The notes beneath the pieces were generated by a model. The model did no database searches. It worked only from the letters and a program-made list of their open reading frames with translations, and had not been told where the DNA came from. This document shows positions 7,798-27,380 of a stretch of DNA of 64,000 nucleotides, piece by piece. This stretch comes from a virus (lineage: Duplodnaviria > Caudoviricetes). Every line of letters starts with the position of its first letter. The first letter of the stretch is position 1. The stretch is from IMG/VR virus record IMGVR_UViG_3300035180_001680; one strand, 5' to 3'. Both the position numbers and the translations under genes were made by a program.

Positions 7798-8199
7798 ATG
7801 TCCGATATGAAAAAAGTTTGGCGTGTTGAAAATTCCAAAGGTGTTGGAATGTACAACTGGGGAACCACAGCCCTAAATCACATGGGAGGGGGAAAACGAC
7901 ATCCTGGTCCATCTTCTGTAAATCAAAATACTGATTTTGGTATTAGTTATTTTTTTGACTATATTCTTTCAGCAAAAGAAGTCCGTAATTGGAAGTTTGG
8001 CTTTGCTTCTTTGGAACAAGCGAAACGTTGGATTTACAGTGCACAGATTCGTAGGCTACTTCGCAACGAGGGGCACTTACTGAACTGCTATGAAGTTCCA
8101 AAAGATTCATTTCACAAAAGTTATCACCAAGCCATATTCGATAGTTCCAAAGCAAAACTAATCGAGACAAGATGTGTTACGTTTTGGGATGAACGTTGA
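7798..8199 (+). CDS. hypothetical protein, possibly ADP-ribosyltransferase-like fold
   Basis: VWRVE...HPGP...FGFASLEQAKRW pattern; the ORF is secure, the fold call is weak. Confidence 0.6.
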   Translation: MSDMKKVWRVENSKGVGMYNWGTTALNHMGGGKRHPGPSSVNQNTDFGISYFFDYILSAKEVRNWKFGFASLEQAKRWIYSAQIRRLLRNEGHLLNCYEVPKDSFHKSYHQAIFDSSKAKLIETRCVTFWDER

Positions 8200-8250
8200 T
8201 GTAACAAGTGTGAAGAGGACTCGAGAAAAAGTCAATGGTATATTAGTACT

Positions 8251-8350
8251 GTTGACTTTTATTTTGTGTTCTAAAACTTGACTTGTATACCTCTCCCCTG
8301 AATCTTGATTTCATAAAGACATTATACCTCAAACTGTCCCAAAAGTCAAC
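8251..8350 (-). repeat. Element copy A (promoter plus short transcript-like core)
   Basis: 8285-8350 is identical to 9431-9496 (66 bp); minus strand reads TTGACT-17-TATAAT. Confidence 0.9.
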
Positions 8351-8413
8351 TGTTGACTCTTTACCTCAAATGTTGGACAATGTCCTCATTGAATAATTCA
8401 ACTGGAGATAGAA

Positions 8414-8665
8414 ATGTTCGCTACTAAACAAGACTTCACTGATGTACTCAAAAACAATGTGTGTCGTGTTGTCTTTCGTAAGAAGGATAGTTCCGAACGT
8501 GTGATGTACTGCACTCTTCAACACAACGTCATTGAAAGTAATGGGTTGACTCCTAATGGAACTGGTCCTATCGTTCCTGACAATCAGGTTCGTTGTATCG
8601 ATACTAACCTTATGGAGTGGAGAAGTTTCAACATCGATACTGTACTTCAGTTTGAGGTGGTGTAG
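8414..8665 (+). CDS. WYL_2/DUF2693-like Sm/SH3 beta-barrel protein
   Basis: VVFRKKDSSERVMYCTL...DTNLMEWRSF pattern; GGAG RBS. Confidence 0.7.
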   Translation: MFATKQDFTDVLKNNVCRVVFRKKDSSERVMYCTLQHNVIESNGLTPNGTGPIVPDNQVRCIDTNLMEWRSFNIDTVLQFEVV

Positions 8666-9378
8666 TAGACAGACACTACTGTTTACTAGTAAGCAACTTT
8701 CAAAAATAATCACTTTCAGAACCTATCTCATTTTATTTTTCACATATCTGAATCCTCTCTCTTCAGATAGCTCTTTAAGGGGAAGCATCATGCTTCCCCT
8801 CTTTTTTGAGCGTAGCACTCACTCCAAACACAAAGACACAAAGATGTACACATAACACAAATGGGAAGATAATTGACTACCCAGCAGCAAGGAATGCTAC
8901 CAATTATAGACATTCATACAACACACAGCAGTGTCTGAAACGTACAACAGTATTGTATTGGGTTGATGATTACTGAATGAGGGTAAGTGTACTCAATGTA
9001 TTGAACTGATTATTCAACCACACCAACAATTATGAAGTGTGTACCTTTATTCTGTCTACTTGGTAAAGGGAAACGTGATACCCGACACACATGGGTAAAC
9101 ATGGAAGGTTGGGTTGTTGGGTACAATGAGAGACGGTATGGTAAGACAGTGTTCACATACTGAATGTAATCACTGTGGTGAACAACCTACAAAGAGAGCA
9201 AAAATTTGGACCCTTTTCAGTTATAATCAAAGTTATATACCTATAACTTTTACTGATCAACACGAGTTCTTATCAAATTTGTGTATCTCCCGATCAGGTT
9301 TACTTATCACGACGGGGGGTTGAAAAATGTGGGGTGGGGTGAGTAAGTGAGGTGAGATTAGAGTGGTCTTGTTTGAAA

Positions 9379-9496
9379 GTCAACTGTTGATCTTTTTATT
9401 TTTCGTTAAAACTGACCTGTACTCGAGATCGTATACCTCTCCCCTGAATCTTGATTTCATAAAGACATTATACCTCAAACTGTCCCAAAAGTCAAC
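9379..9496 (-). repeat. Element copy B
   Basis: 9431-9496 equals copy A core; 9379-9424 is the exact reverse complement of 9862-9907. Confidence 0.9.
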
Positions 9497-9560
9497 AGTT
9501 GACTTTTTCTTAAAAGGGTAATACAATATCTTTTCTAAAACGTTATAAAGAGAGAAAGAA

Positions 9561-9755
9561 ATGACAGTACTACAACTGATCAAGTCTCTGATGTCTGTCG
9601 AAGACAAATCCATTAATGTAATTATTACGGTTGAGTCGGGGTTGAGTTGTTTATCTTCAAGTGATGTGTTCGGTCAAGAAACATACAGAGAAGATGAAAA
9701 TGGTGAGTCGTATAACGTTTTTGTTATCGAAGGTGAAGAGACAAGTTTCGAGTAA
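9561..9755 (+). CDS. hypothetical protein
   Basis: Follows promoter 9499-9527; lies between copies B and C. Confidence 0.6.
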   Translation: MTVLQLIKSLMSVEDKSINVIITVESGLSCLSSSDVFGQETYREDENGESYNVFVIEGEETSFE

Positions 9756-9791
9756 TTATCTTTAAAGAAAAAGTCAACGATGAAATGTTCG

Positions 9792-9907
9792 TTGACTTTT
9801 TCCCCTTTTAGAGAGATAATGTACTCGAAATCAGGAATTCAGGGGAGAGGTATGGAGTTTAGAGTACAGGTCAGTTTTAACGAAAAATAAAAAGATCAAC
9901 AGTTGAC
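9792..9907 (+). repeat. Element copy C (points toward the C-free cassette)
   Basis: TTGACT 9792-9797, 17 bp, GATAAT 9815-9820; 9811-9885 is an inverted repeat of 11769-11843 with 1 mismatch. Confidence 0.9.
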
Positions 9908-10026
9908 TTCTTTAAGTTCTTGGTGTTCGAATTTCAAAACATACTCTATACAAAAAGTCAACTGATTAATTCTGAAACATACTTTATACAAAAAGTCAAC
10001 TTTTATTAATTAAAATAGATGGGGTA

Positions 10027-10054
10027 TTGTGTTTTTGTGTGGGTGTGGTAGAAT
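10027..10054 (+). promoter_or_regulatory. C-free extended -10 promoter (TTGTGT...TGG TAGAAT)
   Basis: Near-identical copy at 11401-11429 with a 17-bp spacer; a third TAGAAT at 10129-10134. Confidence 0.65.
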
Positions 10055-10182
10055 GGGGGTGTGGTGTGTAGGGGGTGTAAAGTATTGTTTTTAGTGAGAA
10101 AGTTGTGGAGTTTTTTGAAAGTTTGTAGTAGAATGTTTGTGTTGTTGAGAGAGAAGTTAATTTGATTTTTAGGAGAGTGAAA

Positions 10183-10755
10183 ATGTTGAAAATGATTAAT
10201 AATGAAATGAATGTGGGTTTTGATGAATTAGTTAATGTGTTTGTTAGTAAGTTTGAAGAAAAGTTGTATGTAAAGAAAGAGAGTTTGAGTAAGAGTATTA
10301 AAGAAGTAAAGAGTAATGTTGAAAAGTTGAAAAAAGAAGTATTGGGTAAAGTTAATTTGAGTAAGTATGAAATTGTTATTGATGTATTAGGTTTGAAATG
10401 TAAAGTTAATAAAGATAGTATAAGTGTTTATTTTAGTGAAGATAGAAAGAAAAGTAGTTATATTGATTTTGTTGTTTATATGTATGATGTAAATGATAAG
10501 AGTTTGGGGTATTGTGTTAATAGTAAGAGAATTAATGTTGATATAGATGTTGATGATGTTGTTGAATATGAGAGTTATATTAGTGAATTAAATAAGTTGA
10601 ATGAAGAATTAATTGAAGTGGTAAATGAAATAAAGAGTATTAGTAGAAAGGAAAGGAGTATTAGGAGTAAGATTAGTGAAATGAAATTGAAAGAGTGTGG
10701 TTTAGAAGAATTGTTGGGAAATGATGAAATAATGAAATTGATTGAATTGAAATAA
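10183..10755 (+). CDS. C-free gene 1, coiled-coil protein (190 aa; no Ala/Pro/Thr/Gln/His)
   Basis: AGGAG RBS at 10171-10175, ATG at 10183, long open frame. Confidence 0.85.
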   Translation: MLKMINNEMNVGFDELVNVFVSKFEEKLYVKKESLSKSIKEVKSNVEKLKKEVLGKVNLSKYEIVIDVLGLKCKVNKDSISVYFSEDRKKSSYIDFVVYMYDVNDKSLGYCVNSKRINVDIDVDDVVEYESYISELNKLNEELIEVVNEIKSISRKERSIRSKISEMKLKECGLEELLGNDEIMKLIELK

Positions 10756-10806
10756 AATAGAATTGTGGTGGTTAGGGAGTTTTTTAATTATATAGAGGAT
10801 TAAAAA

Positions 10807-11388
10807 ATGAGTAATGAAATGGTTTATGTTATTAATGTGAATAATGAATTTGTTTTGGAATGTAAAAAAGTATTGATTGAAGATGTTGTTGATGTGTTTT
10901 ATAGTAGAGAAGAAATGAAAGAAATGGGATGGAGATATAGAGATGTGAGTTTAAAAAAAGGTAGAATTAAAGAGTATTTAAATGGTTTAGTAAAAGAAAT
11001 GAAAGATAGTGGAAAAAAGAGTATTAAATTGAGTAGTTTGTTTGTTGGTGTTTGTAAGAGTTATGGTTTAAAGATTAGTGAATATGTTGAAGGTGTGAGG
11101 AGATTAAATAATAAGTTGTTTTTGTATGAAAAGAAAAAGAATAGTTATAGTAAAAGAGATGTAATTAATTTTGTGGATATGGGAGTAATGTTAATAAGAA
11201 AGAAGTATGGGATTGAATTAGATATAAAGAATGTGAGTTATAGTTATGATGGTTGTGTGAAAGTTGTAAAAGATTTGATTAGTTTATATGAATTGTGTAG
11301 TTATAAAGGAAGTAGGTTTATAGTGGAAAAAGAATGGATTGAAATGATTTATAATAAAGAAGGGGAATTGTTTAAGAAGAAAGAATGA
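10807..11388 (+). CDS. C-free gene 2 (193 aa; no Ala/Pro/Thr/Gln/His)
   Basis: GAGGA RBS, ATG, long open frame. Confidence 0.85.
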   Translation: MSNEMVYVINVNNEFVLECKKVLIEDVVDVFYSREEMKEMGWRYRDVSLKKGRIKEYLNGLVKEMKDSGKKSIKLSSLFVGVCKSYGLKISEYVEGVRRLNNKLFLYEKKKNSYSKRDVINFVDMGVMLIRKKYGIELDIKNVSYSYDGCVKVVKDLISLYELCSYKGSRFIVEKEWIEMIYNKEGELFKKKE

Positions 11389-11400
11389 AATAAAAAGTTG

Positions 11401-11429
11401 TTGTGTTTTTTGTGTGGGTGTGGTAGAAT
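11401..11429 (+). promoter_or_regulatory. C-free promoter, second copy
   Basis: TTGTGT-17-TAGAAT with TG extension, preceded by AAAAAGTTG as in normal promoters of this region. Confidence 0.7.
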
Positions 11430-11448
11430 AGTGGTGTTGATAATATGA

Positions 11449-11691
11449 ATGGAAAAAGAAATGAAAGTTGAAATTATTAGTGTTATGTTTGAAGATAATA
11501 TTAGTAATTTTTGTGGTGGAGGTTTTTGTAAAGTTGAATGTAGTGGAGAGAATATTGAAGATTGTGTAGTGAATGATTATTATAAAGGAGATTGTGAATT
11601 TGATTTAGATATAGATTTAAGATATAAGGTAGAAGAAGATGTTTATTATTTGAGAAATAGAGAGAGATTGTTAATTATTAAAATAATTTAA
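11449..11691 (+). CDS. C-free gene 3 (80 aa, acidic, Cys-rich)
   Basis: Follows promoter 11401-11429; open frame. Confidence 0.7.
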   Translation: MEKEMKVEIISVMFEDNISNFCGGGFCKVECSGENIEDCVVNDYYKGDCEFDLDIDLRYKVEEDVYYLRNRERLLIIKII

Positions 11692-11708
11692 AAAGTTGTT
11701 GACTTTTT

Positions 11709-11740
11709 AAAAATGACCTGACCTAAGTCAAGTCATTTTT
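11709..11740. terminator. bidirectional intrinsic terminator closing the C-free cassette
   Basis: AAAAATGAC-C-TGAC ctaa GTCA-A-GTCATTTTT hairpin with A/T tails. Confidence 0.65.
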
Positions 11741-11754
11741 TATTTTTATAAAAG

Positions 11755-11862
11755 TTGACTTTTATTCATTTCGTTAAAACTGACCTGTTCTCTAAACTCC
11801 ATACCTCTCCCCTGAATTCCTGATTTCGAGTACATTATCTCTCTTTTTGACCCTAAAGTCAA
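11755..11862 (-). repeat. Element copy D (points toward the C-free cassette)
   Basis: Minus strand reads TTGACT-17-GATAAT; 75-bp inverted repeat with copy C. Confidence 0.9.
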
Positions 11863-12089
11863 CAGTTGACCAAATCCCCTAATTCAGATACAATGTCCTC
11901 ATTGAAATCAAAAATTATGTTTCATTTGGAGTAAATGGTATCATCTGTGTCGGTTCCGGCACCTGCCCTGAAATTGAGGGCACCGAAGAAGTTTTGGAAT
12001 ACATTGAAAGAATTTGTAACTAATTGTTGTCCTCAACCACAGTTTGTGTGACAATGGTCTCACTGAAACGTTAATTGAAAGGAAACAAA

Positions 12090-12518
12090 ATGACCAACAC
12101 CAAGACCTCCAAGAAATCGATTTTCATTTCCGCTTTCAACGCCCTGCCCGTTGACATGAAGCGCAAAGAAGCTCTTGCAATTCTCAGTGAACAATGTGGC
12201 CTTTCGATGGCAGGTGCAAGTACTTATTACGCCAACTGCAAGAGTGGTCTGTGGTCAACTGGAACTGTTCAAAAAGAATCGTATCTTGAAATGATCGCTT
12301 TGGTCACTGGTGAATATATTGCAAAGCATCGTGCAAAAGAACAGGCCAACAGGGCCGTTCAAAGTGTCACACAAAAATCTGAAAAGATCAACCTTGAAGT
12401 GATGACCGGTTCCGAACTGGTTGCTTTGTACAACAGTAAGGTCAGCGATGCCCAACAGATCGTCAAGTTCCGCAACAAGGCTGAAGGAATTAAACGAGTT
12501 GCCGCCCTTATCGGCTGA
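12090..12518 (+). CDS. two-domain hypothetical protein with N-terminal LSMAGASTYYANCK domain
   Basis: AAAGGA RBS; follows promoter 12027-12055. Confidence 0.75.
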   Translation: MTNTKTSKKSIFISAFNALPVDMKRKEALAILSEQCGLSMAGASTYYANCKSGLWSTGTVQKESYLEMIALVTGEYIAKHRAKEQANRAVQSVTQKSEKINLEVMTGSELVALYNSKVSDAQQIVKFRNKAEGIKRVAALIG

Positions 12519-12593
12519 AACTTTGAAATAAGTGTTGACATCTTATCTATAATAGGGTAAGATGTCTTCACTGTAACGAGAAAGAGATGAGCA

Positions 12594-12902
12594 ATGTCCA
12601 ATATAACTTTTCATAAAGAAGTTCGTACCATTTGTAGTAACTATGGTTGGGATGTTTACAGTACATACAACGACAAGGGTGTGACCCATCGAAGGGTATC
12701 GTATTCGAGGGTACCATATTTGAAGGTACCGTATTCGAAGTTCAATTGTAATGTTCCTGAAAAGATCAAGGCACATATCAAACAAGAAGTTGAACAACTG
12801 TTGTCCAATCATGGAGTGACTGGTCAAGTGTATTGGTTTGAGGCTCATTCGTATTATGGTAATGGACCCTACGACAAACTTTGTATCAAGATTCCTTTGT
12901 AG
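12594..12902 (+). CDS. hypothetical protein
   Basis: Follows promoter 12535-12563; hairpin at 12918-12945 downstream. Confidence 0.7.
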   Translation: MSNITFHKEVRTICSNYGWDVYSTYNDKGVTHRRVSYSRVPYLKVPYSKFNCNVPEKIKAHIKQEVEQLLSNHGVTGQVYWFEAHSYYGNGPYDKLCIKIPL

Positions 12903-13037
12903 ATAGTTACAATGGCGAAGGTGCTCTATGGTGATAGGGCACCTTTGAAATAAAATTAAACAGTTGACTTTGCTATGCGTATGATGTATAATATATGTGT
13001 ATTAGGGGAGGGATGATTTTTTCCAATTTAAGTTGGT

Positions 13038-13188
13038 CCAATCTATCATTAACTATCTTCCAATCTATCATTAATCATTCTCCAATCCAATCCAATCCAA
13101 TCCAATCTATCATTAACTATCTTCCAATCTATCATTAACTATCTTCCAATCTATCATTAATCATTCTCCAATCTATCATTAACTATCA
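13038..13188. repeat. Tandem 22-bp repeat array (six units plus a CCAAT x4 insert); candidate origin iterons
   Basis: Units CCAATCTATCATTAACTATCTT / CCAATCTATCATTAATCATTCT start at 13038, 13060, 13102, 13124, 13146, 13168; no G on the + strand from 13037 to 13210. Confidence 0.9.
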
Positions 13189-13340
13189 CCCCACAATTAT
13201 TTTCCAACCCGCGTCACGATTTTTTTGTCACCCTAAAATAAACACCGCACTGTTTTTCCCATATGTGCAAAAATTTTTTGGCAAATTTTTTTCCCAAAAT
13301 CCAAAATTGTTTATAATCAACAGTTGACATATTCCCCTCT

Positions 13341-13595
13341 ATGAGATATAATATGCTTCATCTCATGCGTTATAGGGAAAATGTAAATGTACACAATACG
13401 TGTATCACCTTTTTTCACATATTAGGTGCTCTCATGATGGGAACGATTTGGGGAGGTATAGTATCTCTATTTGTTCTGTTTGTTAGTGGAAACGAACAAC
13501 TCTTCTTTAAGAGGACTCTATACTTGATGGGAATTGGTGCAGTGGTATCACTCTTGGTATATTTAACCGCAAATGGTGTATTGGTTTGGACATAA
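13341..13595 (+). CDS. small membrane protein
   Basis: Two hydrophobic segments; true start probably internal. Confidence 0.55.
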   Translation: MRYNMLHLMRYRENVNVHNTCITFFHILGALMMGTIWGGIVSLFVLFVSGNEQLFFKRTLYLMGIGAVVSLLVYLTANGVLVWT

Positions 13596-13788
13596 GGAGA
13601 TATTAATATGTGGCTACCAAATTGGATTTATAATAAACTCCCAATGATTTATTTCATATTGGGATGTTGTTGTACATTGTTTACTCCAAATGTATTTGGA
13701 TACTTTTCAGGAGGTATATTCTTTTTGATTTGTTCATTGATTGTATACCTCCGTTTTAATAACAGATACGAAGAATAGGAGAAGTAGA

Positions 13789-14133
13789 ATGAAAACAGCT
13801 AAAGAGTTAAGAGAACTTGCCGATAATAGTGAAAGTAGGATAAAAAAAATTCTTGATGAACTTGAAGCAAAGATGGTTGAACGAGCTGAAAAGGGATTTG
13901 TGAATTTGGAATGTAACTTTTCGATTTTTGGAATTCCATTTTTTGAATCCGAATCAGTGCGTTATGTTCCTGAACCTAATCCAACCGCAGCATTGGTGAT
14001 GGATAGATTAAGAAAGTTGGGGTATGAAGTATCGTGGAGAAATATTCATGCTGATTATGTTCCTCGTGGACTTATGAATGATTTTGAAGAGGGTCCAAAA
14101 TTTCAAACGTGGATATGGGTAATTTCTTGGTAA
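13789..14133 (+). CDS. hypothetical protein
   Basis: AGGAG RBS, start MKTAKEL. Confidence 0.7.
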   Translation: MKTAKELRELADNSESRIKKILDELEAKMVERAEKGFVNLECNFSIFGIPFFESESVRYVPEPNPTAALVMDRLRKLGYEVSWRNIHADYVPRGLMNDFEEGPKFQTWIWVISW

Positions 14134-17997: not shown

Positions 17998-20900
17998 ATG
18001 TTATTTGATGGTATTACACTCAACGAAGGTTCGCATATTCTAAACGCATCGATTGAAAGTGGAGCAAGTTTTCCGCTTGTTCCTAATGTAGGAGAATTGT
18101 TTTACAAAACTAGCGTGGGACTTCATGTGTTTGATGGTTCTACGTGGAATTTGGTGAACACGTCTGACACCACATCATTCATATTGAAATCTGGCGGAAC
18201 AATGACTGGTTATCTTGTGTTGAATGATGACCCAACAACGAATCTACAAGCAGCAACTAAACACTATGTTGATAACTCTGTTGCATCGTATGCACCATTG
18301 ACAGGAACAGGGACTTCAGGAACTTGGGGTATTAGTATTACAGGAAATGCAGCTACTGTCACTACTAACGCCAATTTAACAGGAGTAGTTACATCAGTAG
18401 GAAACGCAACGTCTATCGGTGCTGGTGCAATTTCAAATACAATGTTAGCAAATTCTGCGGTTGCAAATTTGAGTGGTACTAATACAGGTGACCAAACAAT
18501 TTCTATTTCAGGTGACGTTACAGCTTCTGGGAGTACTGGAGTCTTAACAGCAACAGTAACAAAAATAAATGGGACGGATTTATCTGGATTGACAACCGGA
18601 TTATTAAAAAATACTACAGGAACTGGTGTTCCGTCTATTGCAGTTGCTGGGACAGATTATTTATTACCAACGGGGAGTGCTGCATCATTAACAAACTTCC
18701 CAACATTAAACCAAAATACAACTGGAAATGCCGCCACAGCTTCTGCTGTTCCATTCAGTGGAATAACAAGCAAACCCACAACATTATCGGGTTACGGAAT
18801 AACGGATGGACAGCCTCTAGACGGAGACTTAACTTCAATTGCTGGACTTGCTGGAACAAGTGGTCTTTTAAAGAAAACTGCCGCAAATACATGGGCGCTT
18901 GACACAAACACATATTTAACTTCCTCAACGGGTGTAACGTCAGTTGCAGGAACGGCTGGTAATATTACAGCAAGTGCATCTACAGGAGCCGTTACACTCA
19001 ACCTTGCAACTATTACAGATTCTGGTCTTGGTTCTTTCAAGAAGATAAACACAGATGGGTTTGGACGAGTAACAGGAACAACAACAGTAACTTCTTCTGA
19101 TATAACAACAACTCTTGGATATACTCCTGCGAATAAAGTTGGAGATTCTATCACAGGTAATTTTGTTTTTGATGGAGTTCATACGGTAACAGGGCTTCCT
19201 TCTCCTACAGGTGGAACAGATGCTGCAAATAAAAATTACGTTGATGCGGCAACTAACGGTCTCACATGGAAATCTGCTGTTCGAGTAGCATCGACTACAA
19301 ATATAAACCTTACCACAGGAGGACTCATTGCGGTAGATGGTGTTACAACCGTTGCAGGTGACAGAGTTCTCGTTAAAGATCAAACATTACCAAAAGAAAA
19401 CGGAATTTATATCGCTGGAACGGGTGCATGGACACGTGCTTCAGATATGAATTTAGCCAGTGAATTTGATGGTTCTGCAGTCTTTGTAAAAGAAGGAACA
19501 TTATATCAAAGTTCTGGTTGGACAGAAACAGCAACTGTGGTAACTGTAGGAACTGATACAGTTACATTTTCAGAGTTTACTGGTGGGGCTTTGTATACTT
19601 GGGGAGTAGGTTTAGCAAATACAGGAAATACAGTTAATATTCAATTGGGTGCAGGTATTGCTGAACTCCCAACAGACGAGGTTGGTATTGACGTATATTC
19701 TGGTGGCGGATTAATGCTAACAGTTGATGGAACAACATCTTCTACATCAACAGCAGCCCAAGTTTCATTAACTAAAGTTGGAACTTCTGGCACATACACG
19801 AGTGTTTCGACAGATTCATACGGTCGTGTTACAAGTGGAAGTAATCCAGCTACTGTTAATTCATTTAATACGAGAACTGGTTCTGTAACATTAACGAGTG
19901 GTGATGTTACATCTGCTCTGGGATCTACAACGGCTAATTATTTCCTTGCAACACCAAACGGTTCGACAGGAACTCCATCATTACGTGCAATAGTTGCAGC
20001 AGATATTCCAACATTAAACCAAAACACAACTGGAAATGCGGGAACAGCAACAATATTGCAAACTGGAAGAACGATTGCTCTTTCAGGTGCAGCTACAGGA
20101 ACAGCTACTTCTTTTGATGGTAGTGCAAACATCACCATCCCAGTCACCTCACTGAATGCAGCAAACTTATCTGGGACTATTCCTTCCGCAGTATTGGGAG
20201 CAAGTACAACTTATGTTGGAACAACAGCTGTTGCATTAAACAGAGCAAGTGCAGCTTTGGCATTAACTGGCATCACTGGAGTTTCGAGTACAGGCGCTTT
20301 GACGTTAAGTTCTACCACCACAAACGCTGTTACATTGGATTCTGGAACAACAGGTGCTGTTAATATTGGTAATAACGCAAACGCCAAAACCATCACTGTT
20401 GGTAACGTGACTGGTGCAACTGGTGTTGTTGTGAATAGTGGTACAGCTGGTGTGCTGTTCAATCAAGTACCAACTGGAACATTCGCTATAACGGCCACTG
20501 CTGCACCAACTACAGACATGACGCAGGTTACTGCTGCGGGAGTGGTAACTGCAGGTGTAAATGCATTGTCAGTGACGTATTCGGGTGGTGCTGCAGCAGT
20601 TGAGGCAAGTGCTGCGCGGCTCAACCTGACACCAGGCACAACATCCGGTGGTACTTGGTCAGCAATGAGGGTAACACCCTCGAGTGCTGCTGCTGCTGCT
20701 GGTGTTACAATGAACGGCGTGAAGTTTGATTCAGTAACTGCCGGCGCAGGTACTGACAACATGATTTATGCGGGTACCGGGTGGGACAACATCATAAGTT
20801 ATAACGGTACAAGTGTTGTGAACGGGTCCGGACAGCTGAATGCGGCCCAATTAACAGGTACTGTTCCTAGTGCTACTATTAGTGGGGCATACTCTGGCAT

Positions 20901-21456
20901 TACTACTCTGGGTATTTCAGGACAATTAACAAGTACCTTAGCAACCGGTACAGCTCCGTTCGCCGTGAGTAGCACAACCCCTGTAGACAACCTAAGTATA
21001 GGTGGTAATGCGGCAACGGCCTCGACAGCGAATGCGCTCAACACCGGCAACAACTACCAAATGAATAGTTTGGGTGTTGGAACAGCAGGTTCAGGCACGG
21101 CTGGTGAGATTCGTGCTACTAATAATGTGACAGCTTATTATTCCTCGGATTCTCGTTTAAAGGAAAACATAAAACCAATCGAAAATGCTCTTGCTAAGGT
21201 CAAGTTAATTAACGGTGTTACGTATGATTGGACAGAAGATTTCATCGAGTCTCATGGAGGTGAAGACGGTTACTTTATTCGTAAACACGACGTTGGCGTA
21301 ATCGCACAGGAAGTTGAGGCTGTGATGCCAGAAATTGTGGTCGATCGGGATGATGGTTACAAAGCGGTTAAATACGAGCGTATGGTTGCACTTCTCATTG
21401 AAGCGGTTAAAGAATTATCTGCTGAAATTGAAGTGTTAAAAGCAAAAGTCAATTAG
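17998..21456 (+). CDS. long tail fibre with C-terminal intramolecular chaperone (peptidase S74-type)
   Basis: G/T/A/S-rich repeats, DAANKNYVD, AATKHYVD, YYSSDSRLKENIK...GVIAQEV...VKYERMVALLIEAVKEL. Confidence 0.9.
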   Translation: MLFDGITLNEGSHILNASIESGASFPLVPNVGELFYKTSVGLHVFDGSTWNLVNTSDTTSFILKSGGTMTGYLVLNDDPTTNLQAATKHYVDNSVASYAPLTGTGTSGTWGISITGNAATVTTNANLTGVVTSVGNATSIGAGAISNTMLANSAVANLSGTNTGDQTISISGDVTASGSTGVLTATVTKINGTDLSGLTTGLLKNTTGTGVPSIAVAGTDYLLPTGSAASLTNFPTLNQNTTGNAATASAVPFSGITSKPTTLSGYGITDGQPLDGDLTSIAGLAGTSGLLKKTAANTWALDTNTYLTSSTGVTSVAGTAGNITASASTGAVTLNLATITDSGLGSFKKINTDGFGRVTGTTTVTSSDITTTLGYTPANKVGDSITGNFVFDGVHTVTGLPSPTGGTDAANKNYVDAATNGLTWKSAVRVASTTNINLTTGGLIAVDGVTTVAGDRVLVKDQTLPKENGIYIAGTGAWTRASDMNLASEFDGSAVFVKEGTLYQSSGWTETATVVTVGTDTVTFSEFTGGALYTWGVGLANTGNTVNIQLGAGIAELPTDEVGIDVYSGGGLMLTVDGTTSSTSTAAQVSLTKVGTSGTYTSVSTDSYGRVTSGSNPATVNSFNTRTGSVTLTSGDVTSALGSTTANYFLATPNGSTGTPSLRAIVAADIPTLNQNTTGNAGTATILQTGRTIALSGAATGTATSFDGSANITIPVTSLNAANLSGTIPSAVLGASTTYVGTTAVALNRASAALALTGITGVSSTGALTLSSTTTNAVTLDSGTTGAVNIGNNANAKTITVGNVTGATGVVVNSGTAGVLFNQVPTGTFAITATAAPTTDMTQVTAAGVVTAGVNALSVTYSGGAAAVEASAARLNLTPGTTSGGTWSAMRVTPSSAAAAAGVTMNGVKFDSVTAGAGTDNMIYAGTGWDNIISYNGTSVVNGSGQLNAAQLTGTVPSATISGAYSGITTLGISGQLTSTLATGTAPFAVSSTTPVDNLSIGGNAATASTANALNTGNNYQMNSLGVGTAGSGTAGEIRATNNVTAYYSSDSRLKENIKPIENALAKVKLINGVTYDWTEDFIESHGGEDGYFIRKHDVGVIAQEVEAVMPEIVVDRDDGYKAVKYERMVALLIEAVKELSAEIEVLKAKVN

Positions 21457-21468
21457 GAGGATACAACG

Positions 21469-21987
21469 ATGGCAATTTATGCAAAGGTCGAAAATGGTGT
21501 AGCAACCGAATATCCCATATTTGAAGGACAACTTGAACCGTTATTTGTGGACTTAAAATTTCCTTTGGATGATCCAAAAAACATAACAATTAACAATGGG
21601 ACATTATGTCCTGCTGGTTATGTGGTTGTTCAGGTAAATCCTGTTGTAAATCCAGACCCGACAACGATCTATACGATGGGATTGCCTACTCTTGATCCAG
21701 TAGATGGAATATGGAAAGAGGCTTGGATTGCAACTCCCATGACAGCAGACCAAATCACTGCTGCCAAAACAGGAATTGCTTCACGGGTTCGTACAAAGCG
21801 TAACAAATTGTTAGCAGCTTCAGATGTATATGTTACATCTGACCGTTGGGCTATTATGTCATCTACCGACCAACAAATGTGGGCAACATTCCGACAAGCT
21901 TTACGTGACATACCAACACAAACCGATTTCCCTATTAGTGTAACATGGCCAATAGAACCTTCGGTATTCCAGGTCAACTCCTTCTAA
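21469..21987 (+). CDS. tail fibre assembly chaperone
   Basis: C-terminal VRTKRNKLLAASD...WATFRQALRDIPTQTDFP...WP motif; directly follows the fibre gene. Confidence 0.85.
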   Translation: MAIYAKVENGVATEYPIFEGQLEPLFVDLKFPLDDPKNITINNGTLCPAGYVVVQVNPVVNPDPTTIYTMGLPTLDPVDGIWKEAWIATPMTADQITAAKTGIASRVRTKRNKLLAASDVYVTSDRWAIMSSTDQQMWATFRQALRDIPTQTDFPISVTWPIEPSVFQVNSF

Positions 21988-22000
21988 TAAGAGAGATGCT

Positions 22001-23524
22001 ATGACACTACAAACATCAGGTGCAATATCACTAAGTGATATTCAAACAGAATTCGGGGGAGCTAATCCTATTGGACTGAATGAGTATTACGCTGGTGGTG
22101 GCTTAGTTCCATCGGGTACGACTGGAACTAATGGTGCAGTTCCTTCTAGTGGAGAAATTAACTTCTGGAACTTCTATGGGACGGCAGCAGCAGCAGCTGC
22201 TGCCACATATTGGATGTCTATGCTAACTATTAACTCTGTTCAAACGGAAGACAACTATGGACAATCTATTGCCGTTGATGGGCATGGAAATGTATACATA
22301 ACTGGATATGAAACAACACAGACTGCAGGTTATAACGATATCTTCATAGCTAAATACAATACAAGTGGGGTTATTCAGTGGCAAAGAAGATTAGGTGGAA
22401 CGGACTATGATTATGGACAAGCTATTGCTGTTGATGGGTCTGGAAATGTCTATATTGCTGGATATGAAGCTTCACAGACTGCAGGTAATTACGATATCTT
22501 CATAGCTAAATACAGTACAAGTGGGGTTATTCAGTGGCAAAGAAGATTAGGTGGAACGAGTACTGATGGTGGAGCTGGCATTGCTGTTGATGGGTCTGGA
22601 AATGTCTATATTGCTGGATATGAATATTCACAGACTGCAGGTAATTACGATGTGTTTATAGCTAAATACAATACAAGTGGGGTTATTCAGTGGCAAAGAA
22701 GCTTAGGTGGAACGAGTACTGATTATGGACAAGCTATTGCCGTTGATGGGTCTGGTAATGTCTATGTAACTGGATATGAAGTACAGACTGCAGGTAATTA
22801 CGATGTGTTTATAGCTAAATACAATACAAGTGGGGTTATTCAGTGGCAAAGAAGATTAGGTGGAACGGGTGCTGATTATGGCACGAGCATTGCTGTTGAT
22901 GGGTCTGGTAATGTCTATGTAACTGGATATGAAACAACACAGACTGCAGGTAGTAACGATGTGTTTATAGCTAAATACAATACAAGTGGGGTTATTCAGT
23001 GGCAAAGAAGATTAGGTGGAACGAATAATGACCGAGGATCGGGCATTGCCGTTGATGGATCTGGAAATGTCTATGTAACTGGATATGAATATTCACAGTC
23101 TGGTGGTGTTAATTACGATATCTTCGTAGCAAAGTATAACACAAGTGGGGTTATTCAGTGGCAAAGAAGAGTCTATAGTAGTACACATGACTTGTACGGT
23201 ACGTCAATCGTAGTTAATGGAACCACATTTAGTGTGTGCGGCTACTATCAAAGTTCTCCTACACATGCATATGTGGCTGTTGGTTCAAATTCATTCATTG
23301 CAAGTCTACCGATAGATGGAACAAAAACAGGATCTAGTGTTACGTTTTCACAAGTATATGCAACACCAGTATTACAATATGCAGCTACTACATTAACGGA
23401 TGCAGCTACTACATTAACGGATGCAGCTACTACCTTAACGGATGCAGCTACTACCTTAACGGATGCAGCTACTACCTTAACGGATGCAGCTACTACCTAC
23501 ACTGCAGAAACACATACGATTTAA
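22001..23524 (+). CDS. probable receptor-binding adhesin: gp38-like N-terminus plus seven-bladed (SBBP-type) beta-propeller
   Basis: SGAISLSDIQTEFGGANPIGLNEYY N-terminus; six near-identical 51-53 aa IAVDGSGNVY...DxFIAKY..SG..QW repeats plus one degenerate repeat. Confidence 0.8.
   Translation: MTLQTSGAISLSDIQTEFGGANPIGLNEYYAGGGLVPSGTTGTNGAVPSSGEINFWNFYGTAAAAAAATYWMSMLTINSVQTEDNYGQSIAVDGHGNVYITGYETTQTAGYNDIFIAKYNTSGVIQWQRRLGGTDYDYGQAIAVDGSGNVYIAGYEASQTAGNYDIFIAKYSTSGVIQWQRRLGGTSTDGGAGIAVDGSGNVYIAGYEYSQTAGNYDVFIAKYNTSGVIQWQRSLGGTSTDYGQAIAVDGSGNVYVTGYEVQTAGNYDVFIAKYNTSGVIQWQRRLGGTGADYGTSIAVDGSGNVYVTGYETTQTAGSNDVFIAKYNTSGVIQWQRRLGGTNNDRGSGIAVDGSGNVYVTGYEYSQSGGVNYDIFVAKYNTSGVIQWQRRVYSSTHDLYGTSIVVNGTTFSVCGYYQSSPTHAYVAVGSNSFIASLPIDGTKTGSSVTFSQVYATPVLQYAATTLTDAATTLTDAATTLTDAATTLTDAATTLTDAATTYTAETHTI
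23381..23497 (+). repeat. 21-bp coding tandem repeat (AATTLTD x5 plus a partial unit)
   Basis: GCAGCTACTAC(A/C)TTAACGGAT units from 23381. Confidence 0.9.
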
Positions 23525-23526
23525 TT

Positions 23527-24111
23527 ATGGAAACAGTTATACACGAAATACCTTGGAGGCATGCACTAACAGACAGCTTTTTAAGCAATAGTGAATATGA
23601 TGTTGTTGTGGATTACGTAAAAACACTGCTATCTTTTTTGCCGGTGACTGAAGGATATAAAGAATTTTTAGATGACAGTTGTAATACCGAAATTAGCAAT
23701 ATCCTGTGTCCGAAAGTATATCAACTTAGAGATACCTTATTTGATACACTAAATTTCGGCGGGAAAGTTCTCCCTCAAGTTCAATACTCTAATTGTGAGT
23801 TGGTAATATCACCAGCGGGATACCGGTATGGAACTATTCACGAAGAAGGGAAACGAAAATTGATGACTTCCGTATTGTATTTGTATCCTCAGGAAGGTGA
23901 TGGTACAGAGATTTATAAAACTAACAACAAGGATTCATATTTTACAACAATTCCATGGAAACCAGACAGACTGTTGTCTTTTGTTGGTCAAAGGAATCCA
24001 GTGTACCAACGGACATGGCACGACTACGGTAATTCTAAATCATTTCATAGAGTTACTATCAATATGATATTGAGTGAAAATAATCATGGGAATAAAAGGA
24101 CAAGGCAATGA
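23527..24111 (+). CDS. 2OG-Fe(II) oxygenase superfamily protein
   Basis: IHEE...KLMTSVLYL...GT...PWKPDRLLSF...TWHDY...RVTINM pattern. Confidence 0.65.
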   Translation: METVIHEIPWRHALTDSFLSNSEYDVVVDYVKTLLSFLPVTEGYKEFLDDSCNTEISNILCPKVYQLRDTLFDTLNFGGKVLPQVQYSNCELVISPAGYRYGTIHEEGKRKLMTSVLYLYPQEGDGTEIYKTNNKDSYFTTIPWKPDRLLSFVGQRNPVYQRTWHDYGNSKSFHRVTINMILSENNHGNKRTRQ

Positions 24112-24706
24112 CACTGCAGGCACCAAGTGCAGAAACCAACATGATTCTATGATGGAAGGTAACGTTCTAGGGTCAGGACCCTCCCGTAAATCATATATCC
24201 CAAACGATCTACCCTCTATTGGTTGTAATTTTCCCTGGACACGCGTAAACTGGACAATAATATTTGATGAGCCGGTTATTGATAAGTTAGTGGAACAACC
24301 TAACTTGATTTCAATAGAAACAAAACTAATTCTTCATTCGAGACTTGTTCCTCATCTAACAGTCAACCATTACACAAGTATGCTTCGACCAAGAATTGAC
24401 TCTATATTCAGTTTTACAAGAATTGAAGAGAAACAGTATTACATTAGTTCTGGTCATTACGCAGCATTATGGATGATTAACAAAGGATTTAACAAACTTA
24501 ATCTATATGGAATGGATAATTACTTCGGTGATTTAGTGTGTGGAGATAACTATACACACATTCAAGGAACACAACACTACCTACCTAATACGGTTAAGGA
24601 TAAATACTCCGAACAACAGATATTAGCAAGAGGTCATCATTGGAAAGACGGATGGGACTTGATCCAAAAACAACATTCACACGTAGAGTTTAATTTTGTT
24701 AGATAA
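24074..24706 (+). CDS. GT29/MAF-like (sialyltransferase-like fold) protein
   Basis: VLGSGPS...IGCN...SSGHYAALW...LNLYGMD; probable start 24149. Confidence 0.55.
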   Translation: MKIIMGIKGQGNDTAGTKCRNQHDSMMEGNVLGSGPSRKSYIPNDLPSIGCNFPWTRVNWTIIFDEPVIDKLVEQPNLISIETKLILHSRLVPHLTVNHYTSMLRPRIDSIFSFTRIEEKQYYISSGHYAALWMINKGFNKLNLYGMDNYFGDLVCGDNYTHIQGTQHYLPNTVKDKYSEQQILARGHHWKDGWDLIQKQHSHVEFNFVR

Positions 24707-25400
24707 TCCTAAAACAATTATCGTGTCATATCCAAATGCAGGAAGAACTTGGCTCAAGCAAATGACGGATATGCTAGATACGGGTATTATGTATTCTCAC
24801 CAAGGATCCCAACACCGTAACCAACTAACTGCCAGCGAAATTATTCAGTTTCTTCAACAATACCCCGATCGATTTGTAGATAGCAAAATCATACTTCTAC
24901 ACCGTGATATTAAAGACCATCTGGTATCAAATTATTTTCAAACAATATATCGTGTTGGTATCAAACTTGCTTTGTCCGAATTTCTCCGTCATCCTTCTCA
25001 CGGCGTTGAGAAATTAGTCCGTTTTAATTTGTTTTGGAAACAGTTTTCAGGAGCCGAAAAGATTGGAACGGTAAAGTATGATACAATGCGGTTGAATCCT
25101 TCAGAATACTTAGTTCAACTTATCCACTTTTTTGATATACCTATTGATGAAACTAGGATTCCTGAGGTAGTTGACTATTGTTCGTTTGAAAGAATGAAAG
25201 ATAGAGAAACAAAGAGAGAAGGTTGGCAGTACTACTATCAGTACACTACACTTGATAATCCGGAATCATTCAAGTGTCGCAGGGGTAAAGTTGGAGGATA
25301 CGTCGATTATTTATCACCAGAAGATATACAATACTGTGATGCTATCACAGAACAATACAATTATACTGGACTGATGAATGACGATACCATTGGTAATTGA
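24696..25400 (+). CDS. sulfotransferase family protein
   Basis: PAPS-binding loop SYPNAGRTWL, ILLHRDIKD, C-terminal RRGKVGGY. Confidence 0.85.
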   Translation: MLDNPKTIIVSYPNAGRTWLKQMTDMLDTGIMYSHQGSQHRNQLTASEIIQFLQQYPDRFVDSKIILLHRDIKDHLVSNYFQTIYRVGIKLALSEFLRHPSHGVEKLVRFNLFWKQFSGAEKIGTVKYDTMRLNPSEYLVQLIHFFDIPIDETRIPEVVDYCSFERMKDRETKREGWQYYYQYTTLDNPESFKCRRGKVGGYVDYLSPEDIQYCDAITEQYNYTGLMNDDTIGN

Positions 25401-26325
25401 AAGGGCAGTTGTTGAAATTAATGGCGGATGTAACTATAAATGTCAGATGTGTCCTCAATCAATCGGACGAGAAAAACAATTCCTCAAAACGATCCCACTT
25501 ACTGAGTTTGAGAGGGTCGTTGCAGAGTTGTCACAATATGGTCTCAAACTTGTCAATCTTGAAGGCTCAGGTGAACCAACACTACAAAATAACCTTGATG
25601 AATATATCAAGGTAGTTACAAAATACGGGGCTAAACCATTTATATACACTAATGGGTTCCGGATGAAAGGTGATTTGATGAAACGGTGTGTTGATGCCGG
25701 ACTCGCATTTTGTCGGTTCTCTGTTATTGGATACAGTAGAGAGAAATACCGTGAATGGATGAAGGCAGATAACTTTGAAATAATCGTTGAGAACGCTGGG
25801 GCAATGAATGAATATGCTCAGGGTTCTACAACAGTCGCTTCATATCATCTCATCCTAGGGTCCGATACCGATTATGAAATTGACCAATATGTAACAAACT
25901 TCATAACTCCTGCACGGACCCAGGCAGAGATATGGAAAATGCACAATTGGTCTGGAGTCTATGACAATCCAACTAAGCGTATGGGCAACAGAAAAACTTG
26001 TGGCAGGCCCTTTGCTCCTGAAATAACAATCCGTGCCGGCGGCCCTAATAAACTATCAGTTGCACCATGTTGCCAGACACTCGGTCAAGACACCATCGCG
26101 GTTCTTGGAAATCTAACAACTCAAACTGTTGAACAAATATGGAATGGTCAACCATACGAACAACTTAGACAAGCACATAGTGAAAAAATGTTTGATAGTA
26201 TTCCCTATTGCAGTAAGTGTGACTTTCTGTATGATGACCAATCTGTTCTCGTTTATTCAAACACAAATACTAAATTATTCACTATGAACGGAACCACATT
26301 CTCTCTTGATGACTTCAGAAACTAA
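25378..26325 (+). CDS. radical SAM/SPASM protein
   Basis: CNYKCQMC motif, GSGEPTL, C-terminal C...CC...LGNL...IWN...CSKC. Confidence 0.9.
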   Translation: MTIPLVIERAVVEINGGCNYKCQMCPQSIGREKQFLKTIPLTEFERVVAELSQYGLKLVNLEGSGEPTLQNNLDEYIKVVTKYGAKPFIYTNGFRMKGDLMKRCVDAGLAFCRFSVIGYSREKYREWMKADNFEIIVENAGAMNEYAQGSTTVASYHLILGSDTDYEIDQYVTNFITPARTQAEIWKMHNWSGVYDNPTKRMGNRKTCGRPFAPEITIRAGGPNKLSVAPCCQTLGQDTIAVLGNLTTQTVEQIWNGQPYEQLRQAHSEKMFDSIPYCSKCDFLYDDQSVLVYSNTNTKLFTMNGTTFSLDDFRN

Positions 26326-26357: not shown

Positions 26358-27380
26358 TCACCCAACAAAGTGTTCGACGATAAACCAATGGTCTTCAAAC
26401 ATGTTTTCACCCTGCAATGCTCCCAAGGGAACCCACATTGCTTTTTCAGCGTCATCATCACCCTTAACCTTTGGTAGTGGACCTGGTGGTAATTCTATGA
26501 AAAAAGCATGAGAAATAGTTCTACCTCGCAAACTTCGGTTAGGGTCATCAAACACTTTCATACCTTTAATGTTTCCCCGAAGTACAGGTATTGGAACTTT
26601 AATTTTTGTTTCTTCACGTAGTTCTCTCAACATTGCATCTTCTAAACGTTCGTTTTGGTTAATGAACCCACCCGGAAGTGCCAACAAACCTTTTCCTGGA
26701 GATGAACGACGTTTAATCAACAAAACGTGTCCTGACTGAACAACGACAGCATCTGTGGTAACGAATGTCGGAGGATATGGAGCTGGTAACCAAGCTTTGT
26801 GATATTTTTTGATATATTCGTAGTCTTCCGAAAGTATAGTAAATTCAGGTGTTGACTTAAATAATTCAAGTTTTGCATAAACTGGCTCGGGAACGAGTGC
26901 TTGAAGGAATTTAAGATTTTTGCCCTCAAAGTAAAGTTCACGAAGATCAGTTGCATTAACATCTTCGTTTAATTCATGTTCCACTGGACTCCACTGTGGG
27001 AACATCTTAAGGTAATACGAACTTTCGTCTTTATCATATCCGATGATTGCAATCTTTGGACGGTCTAACCAAAACTCTCCAAGCATAGCCTCACTAACAG
27101 CTTCTTGGACTGCAGTAGTCCACTTTTGGTCGCTTGGTTGGTCGTTGACTTTGGTAATTTTGATTCGGTCTAAATTTCCACCAAAATCCTGACTTATAAT
27201 CATTGCTGCACGCTCTGAAGCAGTCCAAGGATTTTTTGGAGTTCGAGACGAATTTGCGCTACCAATAATAACAATTAGTTTGGTAGCAATTGACAAAGCT
27301 GTTTCAAATACTTGTTTGTGTCCAATGTGGAATGGTTGAAACCGTCCAATAAACACAGCATAATCGTACTGTTTTTGCAT
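26358..27380 (-). CDS. nadM: bifunctional NMN adenylyltransferase / NUDIX ADP-ribose pyrophosphatase
   Basis: FIGRFQPFHIGH and NUDIX box GGFINQNERLEDAMLRELREET; start MQKQY after GGAG. Confidence 0.92.
   Translation of the reverse strand: MQKQYDYAVFIGRFQPFHIGHKQVFETALSIATKLIVIIGSANSSRTPKNPWTASERAAMIISQDFGGNLDRIKITKVNDQPSDQKWTTAVQEAVSEAMLGEFWLDRPKIAIIGYDKDESSYYLKMFPQWSPVEHELNEDVNATDLRELYFEGKNLKFLQALVPEPVYAKLELFKSTPEFTILSEDYEYIKKYHKAWLPAPYPPTFVTTDAVVVQSGHVLLIKRRSSPGKGLLALPGGFINQNERLEDAMLRELREETKIKVPIPVLRGNIKGMKVFDDPNRSLRGRTISHAFFIELPPGPLPKVKGDDDAEKAMWVPLGALQGENMFEDHWFIVEHFVG

What the first reader, a model, noticed from the sequence alone, without database searches (positions are those of the whole stretch)
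10183..11691. Natural proteins on a 15-letter alphabet, with signs of adaptive recoding
Seen: 463 codons with no Ala, Pro, Thr, Gln or His and no internal stops. Passive C-to-T conversion would turn CAA/CAG/CGA into stops and TCN/CCY into Phe/Leu. Instead gene 1 has 20 Ser in 190 aa (all AGT) and only 5 Phe, and Cys is frequent in genes 2 and 3. Inference: Ser, Cys and Val replaced Ala and Thr under selection for function; these would be rare natural reduced-alphabet folds.
Basis: partly seen in the sequence, partly recalled or inferred. Interest (0 to 1): 0.8.

Follow-up and report, generated by a model that had tools for sequence, protein, structure and literature searches.

The report
Phage genes written without cytosine
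An uncultured giant phage carries a three-gene unit whose coding strand has no cytosine, so its proteins use only 15 amino acids. Relatives show that ordinary 20-letter proteins were rewritten this way and kept so by selection, which I could not find described in print.

Summary
Window 10001-11702 (1,702 nt) has no C on the + strand. It holds three intact ORFs (190, 193 and 80 codons) with no Ala, Pro, Thr, Gln or His.

- **Not passive C-to-T decay.** That would give about 21 stops and a Phe/Ile excess, and neither is seen.
- **Kept C-free in a relative.** A 96%-identical relative has the same C-free cassette. None of its 57 substitutions involves C, against 42% in the flanks (P about 2e-14).
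- **Recoded from ordinary proteins.** Genes 1 and 2 belong to two uncharacterised jumbo-phage families (106 and 40 clusters). Most members use all 20 amino acids; a deeply diverged minority is C-free.
  - Conserved Thr becomes Ser, Gln becomes Lys/Glu, His becomes Tyr/Asn, Pro becomes Asp/Glu/Gly and Ala becomes Val and others.
  - Conserved Arg, Ser and Leu survive on AGR, AGT and TTR codons.
- **Predicted to fold.** Gene 2 models at pLDDT 93 with the family alignment.
- **A unit-level rule.** Related phages carry several C-free units with unrelated genes. In most the first C falls in the terminator hairpin; in one relative the terminator is C-free too.

The reason for excluding C is inferred, not shown. 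The scan has noted C-free genes on other DNA.

The parts
10001..11702 (+). Cytosine-free tract covering promoters, 5' leaders, three genes and their spacers
   Evidence: Zero C in 1,702 nt. GC skew is +1.0 and TA skew -0.03.
10026..10062 (+). First C-free promoter-like site: TTGTGT, then an extended -10, TGG-TAGAAT
   Evidence: Direct-repeat family D5, with copies at 10032, 10112 and 11407. Sequence read. The same type of site stands in related cassettes. The function is inferred.
10112..10142 (+). Second promoter-like copy: TTGAAA, then TAGTAGAAT
   Evidence: D5 copy, 71% identical to the reference copy. Inferred.
10183..10755 (+). Gene 1, 190 aa, 15-letter alphabet; member of an uncharacterised, largely helical jumbo-phage family
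   Evidence: ORF with a ribosome-binding site (AGGAGAG). The profile search found 106 relatives. It keeps 38 of 47 positions that are at least 80% conserved.
10807..11388 (+). Gene 2, 193 aa, 15-letter alphabet; member of a second uncharacterised family that sits next to the gene 1 family
   Evidence: phmmer found 40 clusters. Alignment A1. AlphaFold2 with A1 gives pLDDT 93.1.
11407..11437 (+). Third promoter-like copy, in front of gene 3
   Evidence: D5 copy, 94% identical to the first.
11449..11691 (+). Gene 3, 80 aa, acidic (net -9), 5 Cys; an orphan
   Evidence: ORF. Kept in the relative L001 with 2 amino-acid changes and a start 4 codons later. No other relatives.
11709..11751 (+). Intrinsic terminator-like hairpin plus T-run; a C at 11703 and then this stem hold the first C's after the cassette
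   Evidence: Inverted repeat I24, 11709-11722 and 11727-11740. The same layout holds in five related cassettes.
9810..9900 (.). Left arm of a 91-nt inverted repeat, with an inward-facing sigma-70-like promoter
   Evidence: I1, 92% complementary. Promoter 9792-9820. A related strain joins 9790 directly to 11754, so it lacks this arm and the cassette.
11754..11844 (.). Right arm of the inverted repeat, with its promoter on the - strand
   Evidence: I1. Promoter 11862-11834 on the - strand.

Best explanation
**What it is.** The three ORFs are real genes of an accessory, early-type transcription unit in an uncultured phage of about 338 kb with T4-type tail-fibre genes. The unit has host sigma-70-like promoters with an extended -10.

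**Shown.**
- Selection keeps the sense strand of the whole unit free of cytosine, from the promoters to the last stop codon.
- The proteins descend from ordinary 20-letter proteins and were rewritten with function-preserving C-free codons.
- The 15-letter alphabet is therefore a by-product of a rule on the nucleic acid.

**Inferred.** The target of selection is the message. An RNA with no C can be made by host RNA polymerase without CTP, cannot be ended by chain-terminating CTP analogues such as viperin-made ddhCTP, and offers no site to C-dependent endoribonucleases or to Rho. The C-free units would then form a 'safe-mode' expression compartment for early accessory or counter-defence genes. 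Of these, I favour independence from CTP or CTP analogues during transcription.
For: **Real genes**
- 463 open codons where 12.3% of random codons would be stops.
- The ORFs are kept in a 96%-identical relative with only an in-frame 21-nt insertion.
- Gene 1 keeps 38 of 47 and gene 2 keeps 14 of 23 family-conserved positions.
- Gene 2 models at pLDDT 93.1 with the family alignment.

**C is actively excluded**
- None of 57 substitutions against L001 involves C, versus 42% in the flanks; P = 2e-14.
- C-free homologues only 31-45% identical are still C-free over 1.0-1.5 kb.

**Recoding rather than decay**
- A Gln that is 95% conserved becomes Lys or Ser, where the passive product would be a stop.
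- Conserved Arg is kept in 14 of 15 cases, on AGR codons.

**The rule applies to the unit, not the gene family**
- L009 has three separate C-free cassettes with six genes, separated by ordinary C-containing genes.
- In L029 the gene 1 homologue is ordinary, but other small genes 5 kb away are C-free.
- At every 3' end visible in the window, L001, L004 and L009, C returns at or just before the terminator hairpin.
- Promoters inside cassettes lack the usual TTGAC and use TGn plus a -10.
- Neighbouring early units with strong promoters have normal C content.

**Accessory status**
- A strain about 96% identical and ten times deeper in run X3 lacks the cassette.

**Background**
- ddh-nucleotides terminate RNA chains (10.1101/2023.09.13.557418).
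- Transcripts lacking a toxin's site escape MazF (PMC9102682).
Against: - There are no expression data: no RNA run holds the stretch, so start sites, timing and protein production are all unobserved.
- No C-directed enzyme or defence was identified in the window, and the host is unknown.
- The C-free zone starts 45-60 nt upstream of the likely start sites, which a purely RNA-level rule does not require. A/T-only UP elements or further upstream promoters could explain it.
- Some relatives tolerate 1-3 C per kb, so a single C is not an absolute block.
- The phage's other early genes contain C and would not share the benefit.
- dN/dS shows weak constraint on gene 2.
- The AlphaFold confidence rests on an alignment made mostly of 20-letter relatives. 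Without the alignment, pLDDT is 38.
Confidence: 0.55

Rival explanations
1. The cause is mutation, not selection on C. A strand-specific cytosine deaminase, or deamination of the exposed non-template strand during heavy transcription, erases every C in these units. Selection acts only to keep the proteins working within what remains.
For: - The exclusion is on one strand only and follows transcription units.
- Ala to Val and His to Tyr are one-step C-to-T products.
- Overall Cys (2.6%) equals the passive expectation of 2.7%.
- No T-to-C change survives in 57 substitutions. Fast re-conversion would also produce that result.
Against: - Adjacent early units with strong promoters keep normal C content.
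- Terminator stems keep their C's.
- The zone includes promoter DNA upstream of the likely start sites.
- No deaminase gene was seen in the window.
- Near-C-free relatives hold stable C's.
Confidence: 0.13
2. The rule acts on double-stranded DNA. With all G on one strand, no palindromic site containing G or C can exist. The cassette would then be immune to most type II restriction and to methylation, as would suit an early anti-restriction module.
For: - By construction there are no G/C-containing palindromes.
- The module is accessory and early-type, with small acidic proteins in related cassettes.
Against: - AT-only palindromes are at their expected frequency in the cassette.
- The rest of the window shows only mild palindrome depletion, and cutting elsewhere would still kill the phage.
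- Removing palindromes does not need every C removed, and it does not predict boundaries at the promoter and terminator.
Confidence: 0.08
3. The cassette has a DNA-structure role. A G-only sense strand favours stable R-loops, so it might serve as a replication origin or recombination hotspot, with the coding capacity secondary.
For: - GC skew is +1, with G clusters just after the first promoter.
- A tandem 22-bp repeat array lies 1.3 kb away.
- The region is rich in rearrangements.
Against: - R-loop formation does not need zero C.
- Several cassettes occur per genome, each with different well-kept ORFs.
- GC content is only 26%.
Confidence: 0.05

Closest known systems
[quoted passage not shown] 2021, PMC8256042)
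   Same: A strongly skewed strand composition recodes working proteins. Gly, Val, Cys and Trp rise while Pro, Thr, His and Gln fall.
   Different: GRINS are by definition duplicated regions (over 80% identity, over 500 bp) with correlated GC and TA skews above 0.15, mostly at third codon positions. Here there is no duplicate in the window, TA skew is -0.03, GC skew is exactly +1, and the unit is a promoter-to-terminator cassette in a phage.
Engineered reduced-alphabet proteins, e.g. the 13-letter nucleoside kinase of Shibue et al. 2018 (PMC5775292)
   Same: Whole proteins built from 13-15 amino-acid types that still fold, derived from 20-letter parents.
   Different: Those were made in the laboratory with letters chosen by the experimenter. 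Here the missing letters (A, P, T, Q, H) are dictated by a missing nucleotide, the recoding is natural and old, and folding is predicted but not measured.
Toxin-site-free messages (ACA-less genes expressed under MazF; PMC9102682) and restriction-site avoidance in phages
   Same: Sequence is purged of a target so that the gene survives a nucleic-acid-directed attack.
   Different: Known cases remove a 3- to 6-nt word by synonymous change. Here a whole base is removed, which forces changes in the protein, and the attacker is unknown.
G-less or C-less cassettes of in vitro transcription assays (from my own knowledge)
   Same: A template that can be transcribed with three NTPs and stalls at the first missing base.
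   Different: Those are synthetic, non-coding and short. This one is natural, 1.7 kb long and encodes three proteins.

Membership tests
Gene 2 family (unnamed jumbo-phage protein, about 200 aa) | Significant full-length sequence similarity | tested here: met
   phmmer against 1.84 billion representatives gave 40 clusters with E from 3e-16 to 7e-4, aligned over residues about 4-185.
Gene 2 family (unnamed jumbo-phage protein, about 200 aa) | Conserved motif positions (acidic N-terminal motif, G-K-K-S, G-x-R-R-x-G-N-R-L) | tested here: met
   14 of 23 columns that are at least 80% conserved are identical in the window protein, and most of the rest are conservative changes. The invariant Arg is kept.
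Gene 2 family (unnamed jumbo-phage protein, about 200 aa) | Adjacent to a gene 1 family member | tested here: met
   The pair is seen in L004, L006, L008 and L009. The order is gene 2 then gene 1 there, and reversed in the window.
Gene 1 family (unnamed, about 190 aa, helical) | Profile similarity and conserved N- and C-terminal motifs | tested here: met
   The profile search gave 106 proteins with E down to 1e-95. 38 of 47 conserved columns are identical. There is no Pfam family; only chance coiled-coil hits.
GRINS | Region duplicated elsewhere in the locus (over 80% identity, over 500 bp) | tested here: not met
   blastn of the cassette against the rest of the window found nothing at E <= 1e-3. 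Only this 64-kb window was searched.
GRINS | Intense and correlated GC and TA skews | tested here: not met
   GC skew is 1.0 but TA skew is -0.03.
Passive C-to-T hypermutation (deaminase or bisulfite-like relic) | Stops at former CAR/CGA codons, a Phe/Leu/Ile excess, and homologues that differ by C-to-T only | tested here: not met
   0 stops against 21 expected, and Phe 3.5% against 10.8%. 22 of 451 informative comparisons equal the passive product. Phe, Leu and Ile are flat against 20-letter relatives.
Restriction-site avoidance | Depletion of palindromic sites beyond what composition forces | tested here: not met
   AT-only 4- and 6-mer palindromes in the cassette are at Markov expectation.
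Acidic DNA-mimic anti-restriction proteins (Ocr/ArdA type) | Strong negative charge and a DNA-like fold | tested here: inconclusive
   Net charges are gene 1 -3, gene 2 +9 and gene 3 -9. The gene 2 model has no clear structural match. Gene 3 was not modelled.

The most novel reading that the evidence does not exclude
A lineage of giant phages keeps a separate class of transcription units written with A, G and T only. These messages can still be made and used when cytosine nucleotides or C in RNA are under attack, for example by CTP depletion, ddhCTP-type chain terminators or C-dependent RNases. Genes move between the ordinary 20-letter form and this 15-letter form, giving repeated natural experiments in shrinking the protein alphabet.
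Probability: 0.3. Interest if true: 0.95.

Novelty: categorically new. Interest (0 to 1): 0.85.

Why it matters
1. **Protein alphabets.** These are natural, evolutionarily maintained proteins that lack five amino acids, with 20-letter homologues to hand. They give direct matched pairs for asking which residues a fold really needs, a question so far addressed only with engineered proteins (PMC5775292).
2. **Strength of the rule.** A rule that bans one base from whole transcription units, strongly enough to override protein sequence, points to a strong and so far unnamed pressure on C in DNA or RNA during phage infection. Finding it could reveal a new defence or counter-defence axis.
3. **A practical template.** C-free coding cassettes with C-free promoters are ready-made models for three-nucleotide expression systems.

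Tried and rejected
**Searches that found nothing**
- No whole genome is held for the window.
- megablast and tblastn of the cassette, genes 1 and 2 and two 20-letter homologues against GenBank phages gave no match.
- Single-protein scans of IMG/VR for genes 1 and 2 found no relative. Alignment A1 was too variable for pattern scanning.
- Pfam and PHROGs give nothing meaningful for the three proteins or their relatives.
- Rfam found nothing above threshold in 8000-14000.
- The ESM Atlas gave no usable hit for gene 3.
- Full-text searches for natural cytosine-free genes found only bisulfite and in vitro uses.

**Structure and binding**
- AlphaFold2 on gene 2 without an alignment gave pLDDT 38, which is uninformative.
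- Fold searches with the good gene 2 model (PDB Foldseek, BFVD, VIA-align wide, ESM Atlas) gave no clear match; the best Z was 4.7, on a 56-residue stretch.
- Complex prediction for gene 2 with gene 1 returned no verdict.

**Expression**
- No RNA holder is listed among public runs.

**Analyses that could not decide**
- The trees could not settle whether C-freeness arose once or several times, because the unusual composition may pull C-free rows together.
- AT-only palindrome depletion was looked for and not found.

Full report
**Observation.** Window 10001-11702 is the only long stretch lacking a base: 1,702 nt without C on the + strand, the next longest C-free run being 60 nt. C is 17.1% elsewhere, so log10 P is about -139. 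The tract holds three + strand ORFs with ribosome-binding sites: 10183-10755 (190 aa), 10807-11388 (193 aa) and 11449-11691 (80 aa). There is no Ala, Pro, Thr, Gln or His in 463 codons. Gene 1 has 20 Ser and 5 Phe, and Cys is 3, 4 and 5 in the three genes. All 39 Ser codons are AGT. Because TAA, TAG and TGA are all C-free, 12.3% of random codons in such sequence are stops. 463 open codons therefore have P about 4e-27. The frames are maintained.

**Not passive decay.** I converted every C to T in the window's other genes (16,132 codons). That would give 21 stops per 463 codons, Phe 10.8%, Ile 13.0%, Ser 2.3% and Arg 1.4%. The cassette has 0 stops, Phe 3.5%, Ile 8.2%, Ser 8.4% and Arg 3.9%, and Lys and Glu are doubled.

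**A close relative shows ongoing exclusion of C.** A homologue search with gene 2 found an 86%-identical protein on a JGI contig (L001) and a Logan contig (L002). Both contigs carry a 1,707-nt C-free run. The DNA is about 96% identical across the region.
- Inside the cassette there are 57 substitutions: 41 A/G, 12 G/T and 4 A/T. None involves C.
- In the flanks, 73 of 172 differences (42%) involve a + strand C. This gives P = 2e-14.
- Codon by codon, gene 1 has 5 synonymous and 13 nonsynonymous differences (ratio about 0.44 on C-free mutational paths).
- Gene 2 has 1 synonymous and 22 nonsynonymous, mostly in its first half, plus an in-frame 21-nt insertion. Gene 3 has 2 nonsynonymous.
- Constraint on the proteins is therefore weak to moderate. 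The gene 2 excess is not significant with these counts. The frames stay intact.

**C-containing homologues exist.** An exhaustive phmmer search of 1.84 billion representatives with gene 2 gave 40 clusters.
- 35 of them have ordinary amounts of A, P, T, Q and H (about 15-22%).
- P0011 and P0040 have none, at only 30-31% identity to the window protein. P0030 and P0026 have 6 and 10.
- A profile search seeded with gene 1 and two relatives gave 106 proteins. Four have none of the five residues, two have one, two have 5-7, and the median is 31.
- Neither family matches Pfam, PHROGs or any GenBank phage.
- The two families are neighbours wherever DNA is available. This holds in C-free form in L004 and L009, and in ordinary form in L006 (20% C) and in the 135-kb and 257-kb IMG/VR contigs L007 and L008. 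The order there is gene 2 then gene 1, the reverse of the window.

**How the recoding went.**
- In the gene 2 alignment (A1), the two best-conserved Thr columns (82% and 68% Thr) hold Ser in C-free members and never Ile or Met. Ala columns hold Val, Cys, Ser, Leu or Ile. The conserved Pro holds Glu, Ser or Asn.
- In the gene 1 alignment (A4), a 95%-conserved Gln is Lys in four C-free members and Ser in the window, where the passive product would be a stop. His becomes Tyr or Asn, and Pro becomes Asp, Glu, Gly or Lys. Conserved Arg is kept in 14 of 15 cases, Leu in 42 of 50 and Ser in 18 of 30.
- At codon level I took positions where 20-letter homologues use a C-containing codon and compared two C-free members. 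105 comparisons keep the residue on a C-free codon, 22 equal the passive product (mostly Ala to Val) and 324 differ otherwise. The passive product would have been a stop at 30 positions. These sequences are only 30-45% identical, so many differences are ordinary divergence.
- Family-wide, C-free members lose about 17% of their residues (A, P, T, Q, H). They gain Lys (+3.4 and +5.4 points in the two families), Val (+3.2 and +2.4), Glu (+1.5 and +3.3), Asn, Tyr, Gly and Cys (+1.2 and +1.0). Phe, Leu and Ile are unchanged.

**Do they fold?** The window gene 2 protein with alignment A1 gives an AlphaFold2 model of pLDDT 93.1 and pTM 0.69. Without the alignment, pLDDT is 38. The confidence therefore reflects the family, and I take it as 'compatible with the family fold'. 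Gene 1 keeps 38 of 47 and gene 2 keeps 14 of 23 family-conserved positions. Structure searches found no clear relative, so the function is unknown. Gene 3 is an orphan.

**The rule belongs to transcription units.**
- Contig L009 (6.4 kb) has three separate C-free runs of 1,276, 1,444 and over 1,006 nt. They hold six genes with none of the five residues, and only two of the six belong to the gene 1 and gene 2 families.
- These runs are separated by ordinary C-containing small genes with ordinary TTGAC promoters.
- On the 450-kb contig L029 the gene 1 homologue is ordinary (71 C), but 5 kb away lies a row of small C-free units.
- In the window, L001, L004 and L009 the C-free zone ends at an intrinsic-terminator hairpin, whose stem holds the first C's. 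In the window one C at 11703 precedes the hairpin.
- In L029 the terminators are themselves C-free, and the only C's sit in a short TGACCTG motif before the next promoter.
- Inside the cassettes the promoter-like sites avoid the TTGAC used elsewhere in the same phages. They rely on TGn plus a -10.
- Some relatives are nearly rather than fully C-free (L010, L024, L034, L036), with 1-3 C per kb or somewhat more.
- As expected, the message is weakly structured: -12.3 against -27.9 kcal/mol per 150 nt.

**The cassette is accessory.** Four metagenome runs from sediment and microbial mats hold the stretch. In run X3 the cassette has depth about 34, while a strain about 96% identical has depth about 353. 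That strain's contig joins 9790 directly to 11754, skipping the left repeat arm and the cassette. The 91-nt inverted repeat arms carry inward-facing promoters.

**Interpretation.** Three things are shown: the genes are real, C is excluded by a continuing force, and the proteins were recoded from 20-letter ancestors in a function-preserving way.
- I infer that the force is selection on the message or sense strand of a special class of early units.
- A C-free RNA needs no CTP and cannot be ended by ddhCTP-type chain terminators.
- It has no site for C-dependent RNases, as with ACA-less messages under MazF.
- From textbook knowledge, it gives Rho no C-rich loading site.
- I favour the transcription-level version but cannot separate these.
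- Against this reading: there are no expression data, no C-directed enzyme was found in the window, the C-free zone reaches upstream of the likely start sites, and a few C's are tolerated in some lineages.
- A mutational cause (targeted deamination) is the main rival. Its weakness is that neighbouring strongly promoted units keep their C.
- Restriction avoidance is weakened by normal AT-only palindrome counts.

**Comparison with what is known.**
- GRINS (PMC8256042) also recode proteins through nucleotide skew. They are defined as duplicated regions with correlated GC and TA skews, and neither feature holds here.
- Engineered 13-letter enzymes (PMC5775292) are the nearest protein analogue.
- One methods paper states that long natural stretches lacking one nucleotide are rare (PMC6526412).
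- I found no paper describing natural C-free genes.
- Earlier notes of this scan report C-free genes in an archaeal provirus and in a marine T4-like phage. So the scan has seen the phenomenon on other DNA. I did not test those notes.

Noticed in passing
window 13037-13210: A 174-nt G-free tract made of 22-bp tandem repeats plus (TCCAA)n, behind a consensus promoter (12964-12992) with no ORF. The relative L001 has a 253-nt G-free run. Copy number varies between metagenome strains (22 nt left out, TCCAA put in).
   Followed up: partly
window 33026-35548: An adenylosuccinate synthetase-like gene whose best PHROG hit is the PurZ-type family of 2-aminoadenine genomes. It is interrupted by an intein with a LAGLIDADG homing endonuclease. 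Whether it is PurZ or PurA was not tested.
   Followed up: no
window 57375-63094: A PrkA kinase, DUF444 and SpoVR triad in a phage. The SpoVR-like gene (60836-63094) also appears to carry an intein/LAGLIDADG insert.
   Followed up: no
window 26358-31299 and 38906-42144: An NAD salvage set: NMN adenylyltransferase-Nudix fusion (- strand), nicotinamide phosphoribosyltransferase and two NAD kinase-like genes. This is a possible counter to NAD-depleting defences.
   Followed up: no
window 9377-9449, 9810-9900, 11754-11844: Three copies of a promoter-bearing element of about 75-90 nt, two of them forming the inverted repeat around the cassette. Also six palindromic GTCAACAGTTGAC sites that look like back-to-back -35 boxes. 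Contig joints in other strains fall at these repeats.
   Followed up: partly
L029 14070-14090, 14430-14445; window 11715-11722, 11781-11787: A short TGACCTG motif recurs beside C-free units. In L029 it holds the only C's between an A/T-only terminator and the next promoter. It may be a regulator site.
   Followed up: no
L009 1116-1619: A C-free gene whose 167-aa product ends in a Cys/Lys tail (about 12 Cys in the last 15 residues). Several other C-free cassette proteins are strongly acidic.
   Followed up: no
window 17998-26325: A 1,152-aa tail fibre with an endosialidase-chaperone domain and a tail-fibre assembly chaperone. These are followed by a beta-propeller protein, a sulfotransferase and a radical SAM/SPASM gene.
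   Followed up: no
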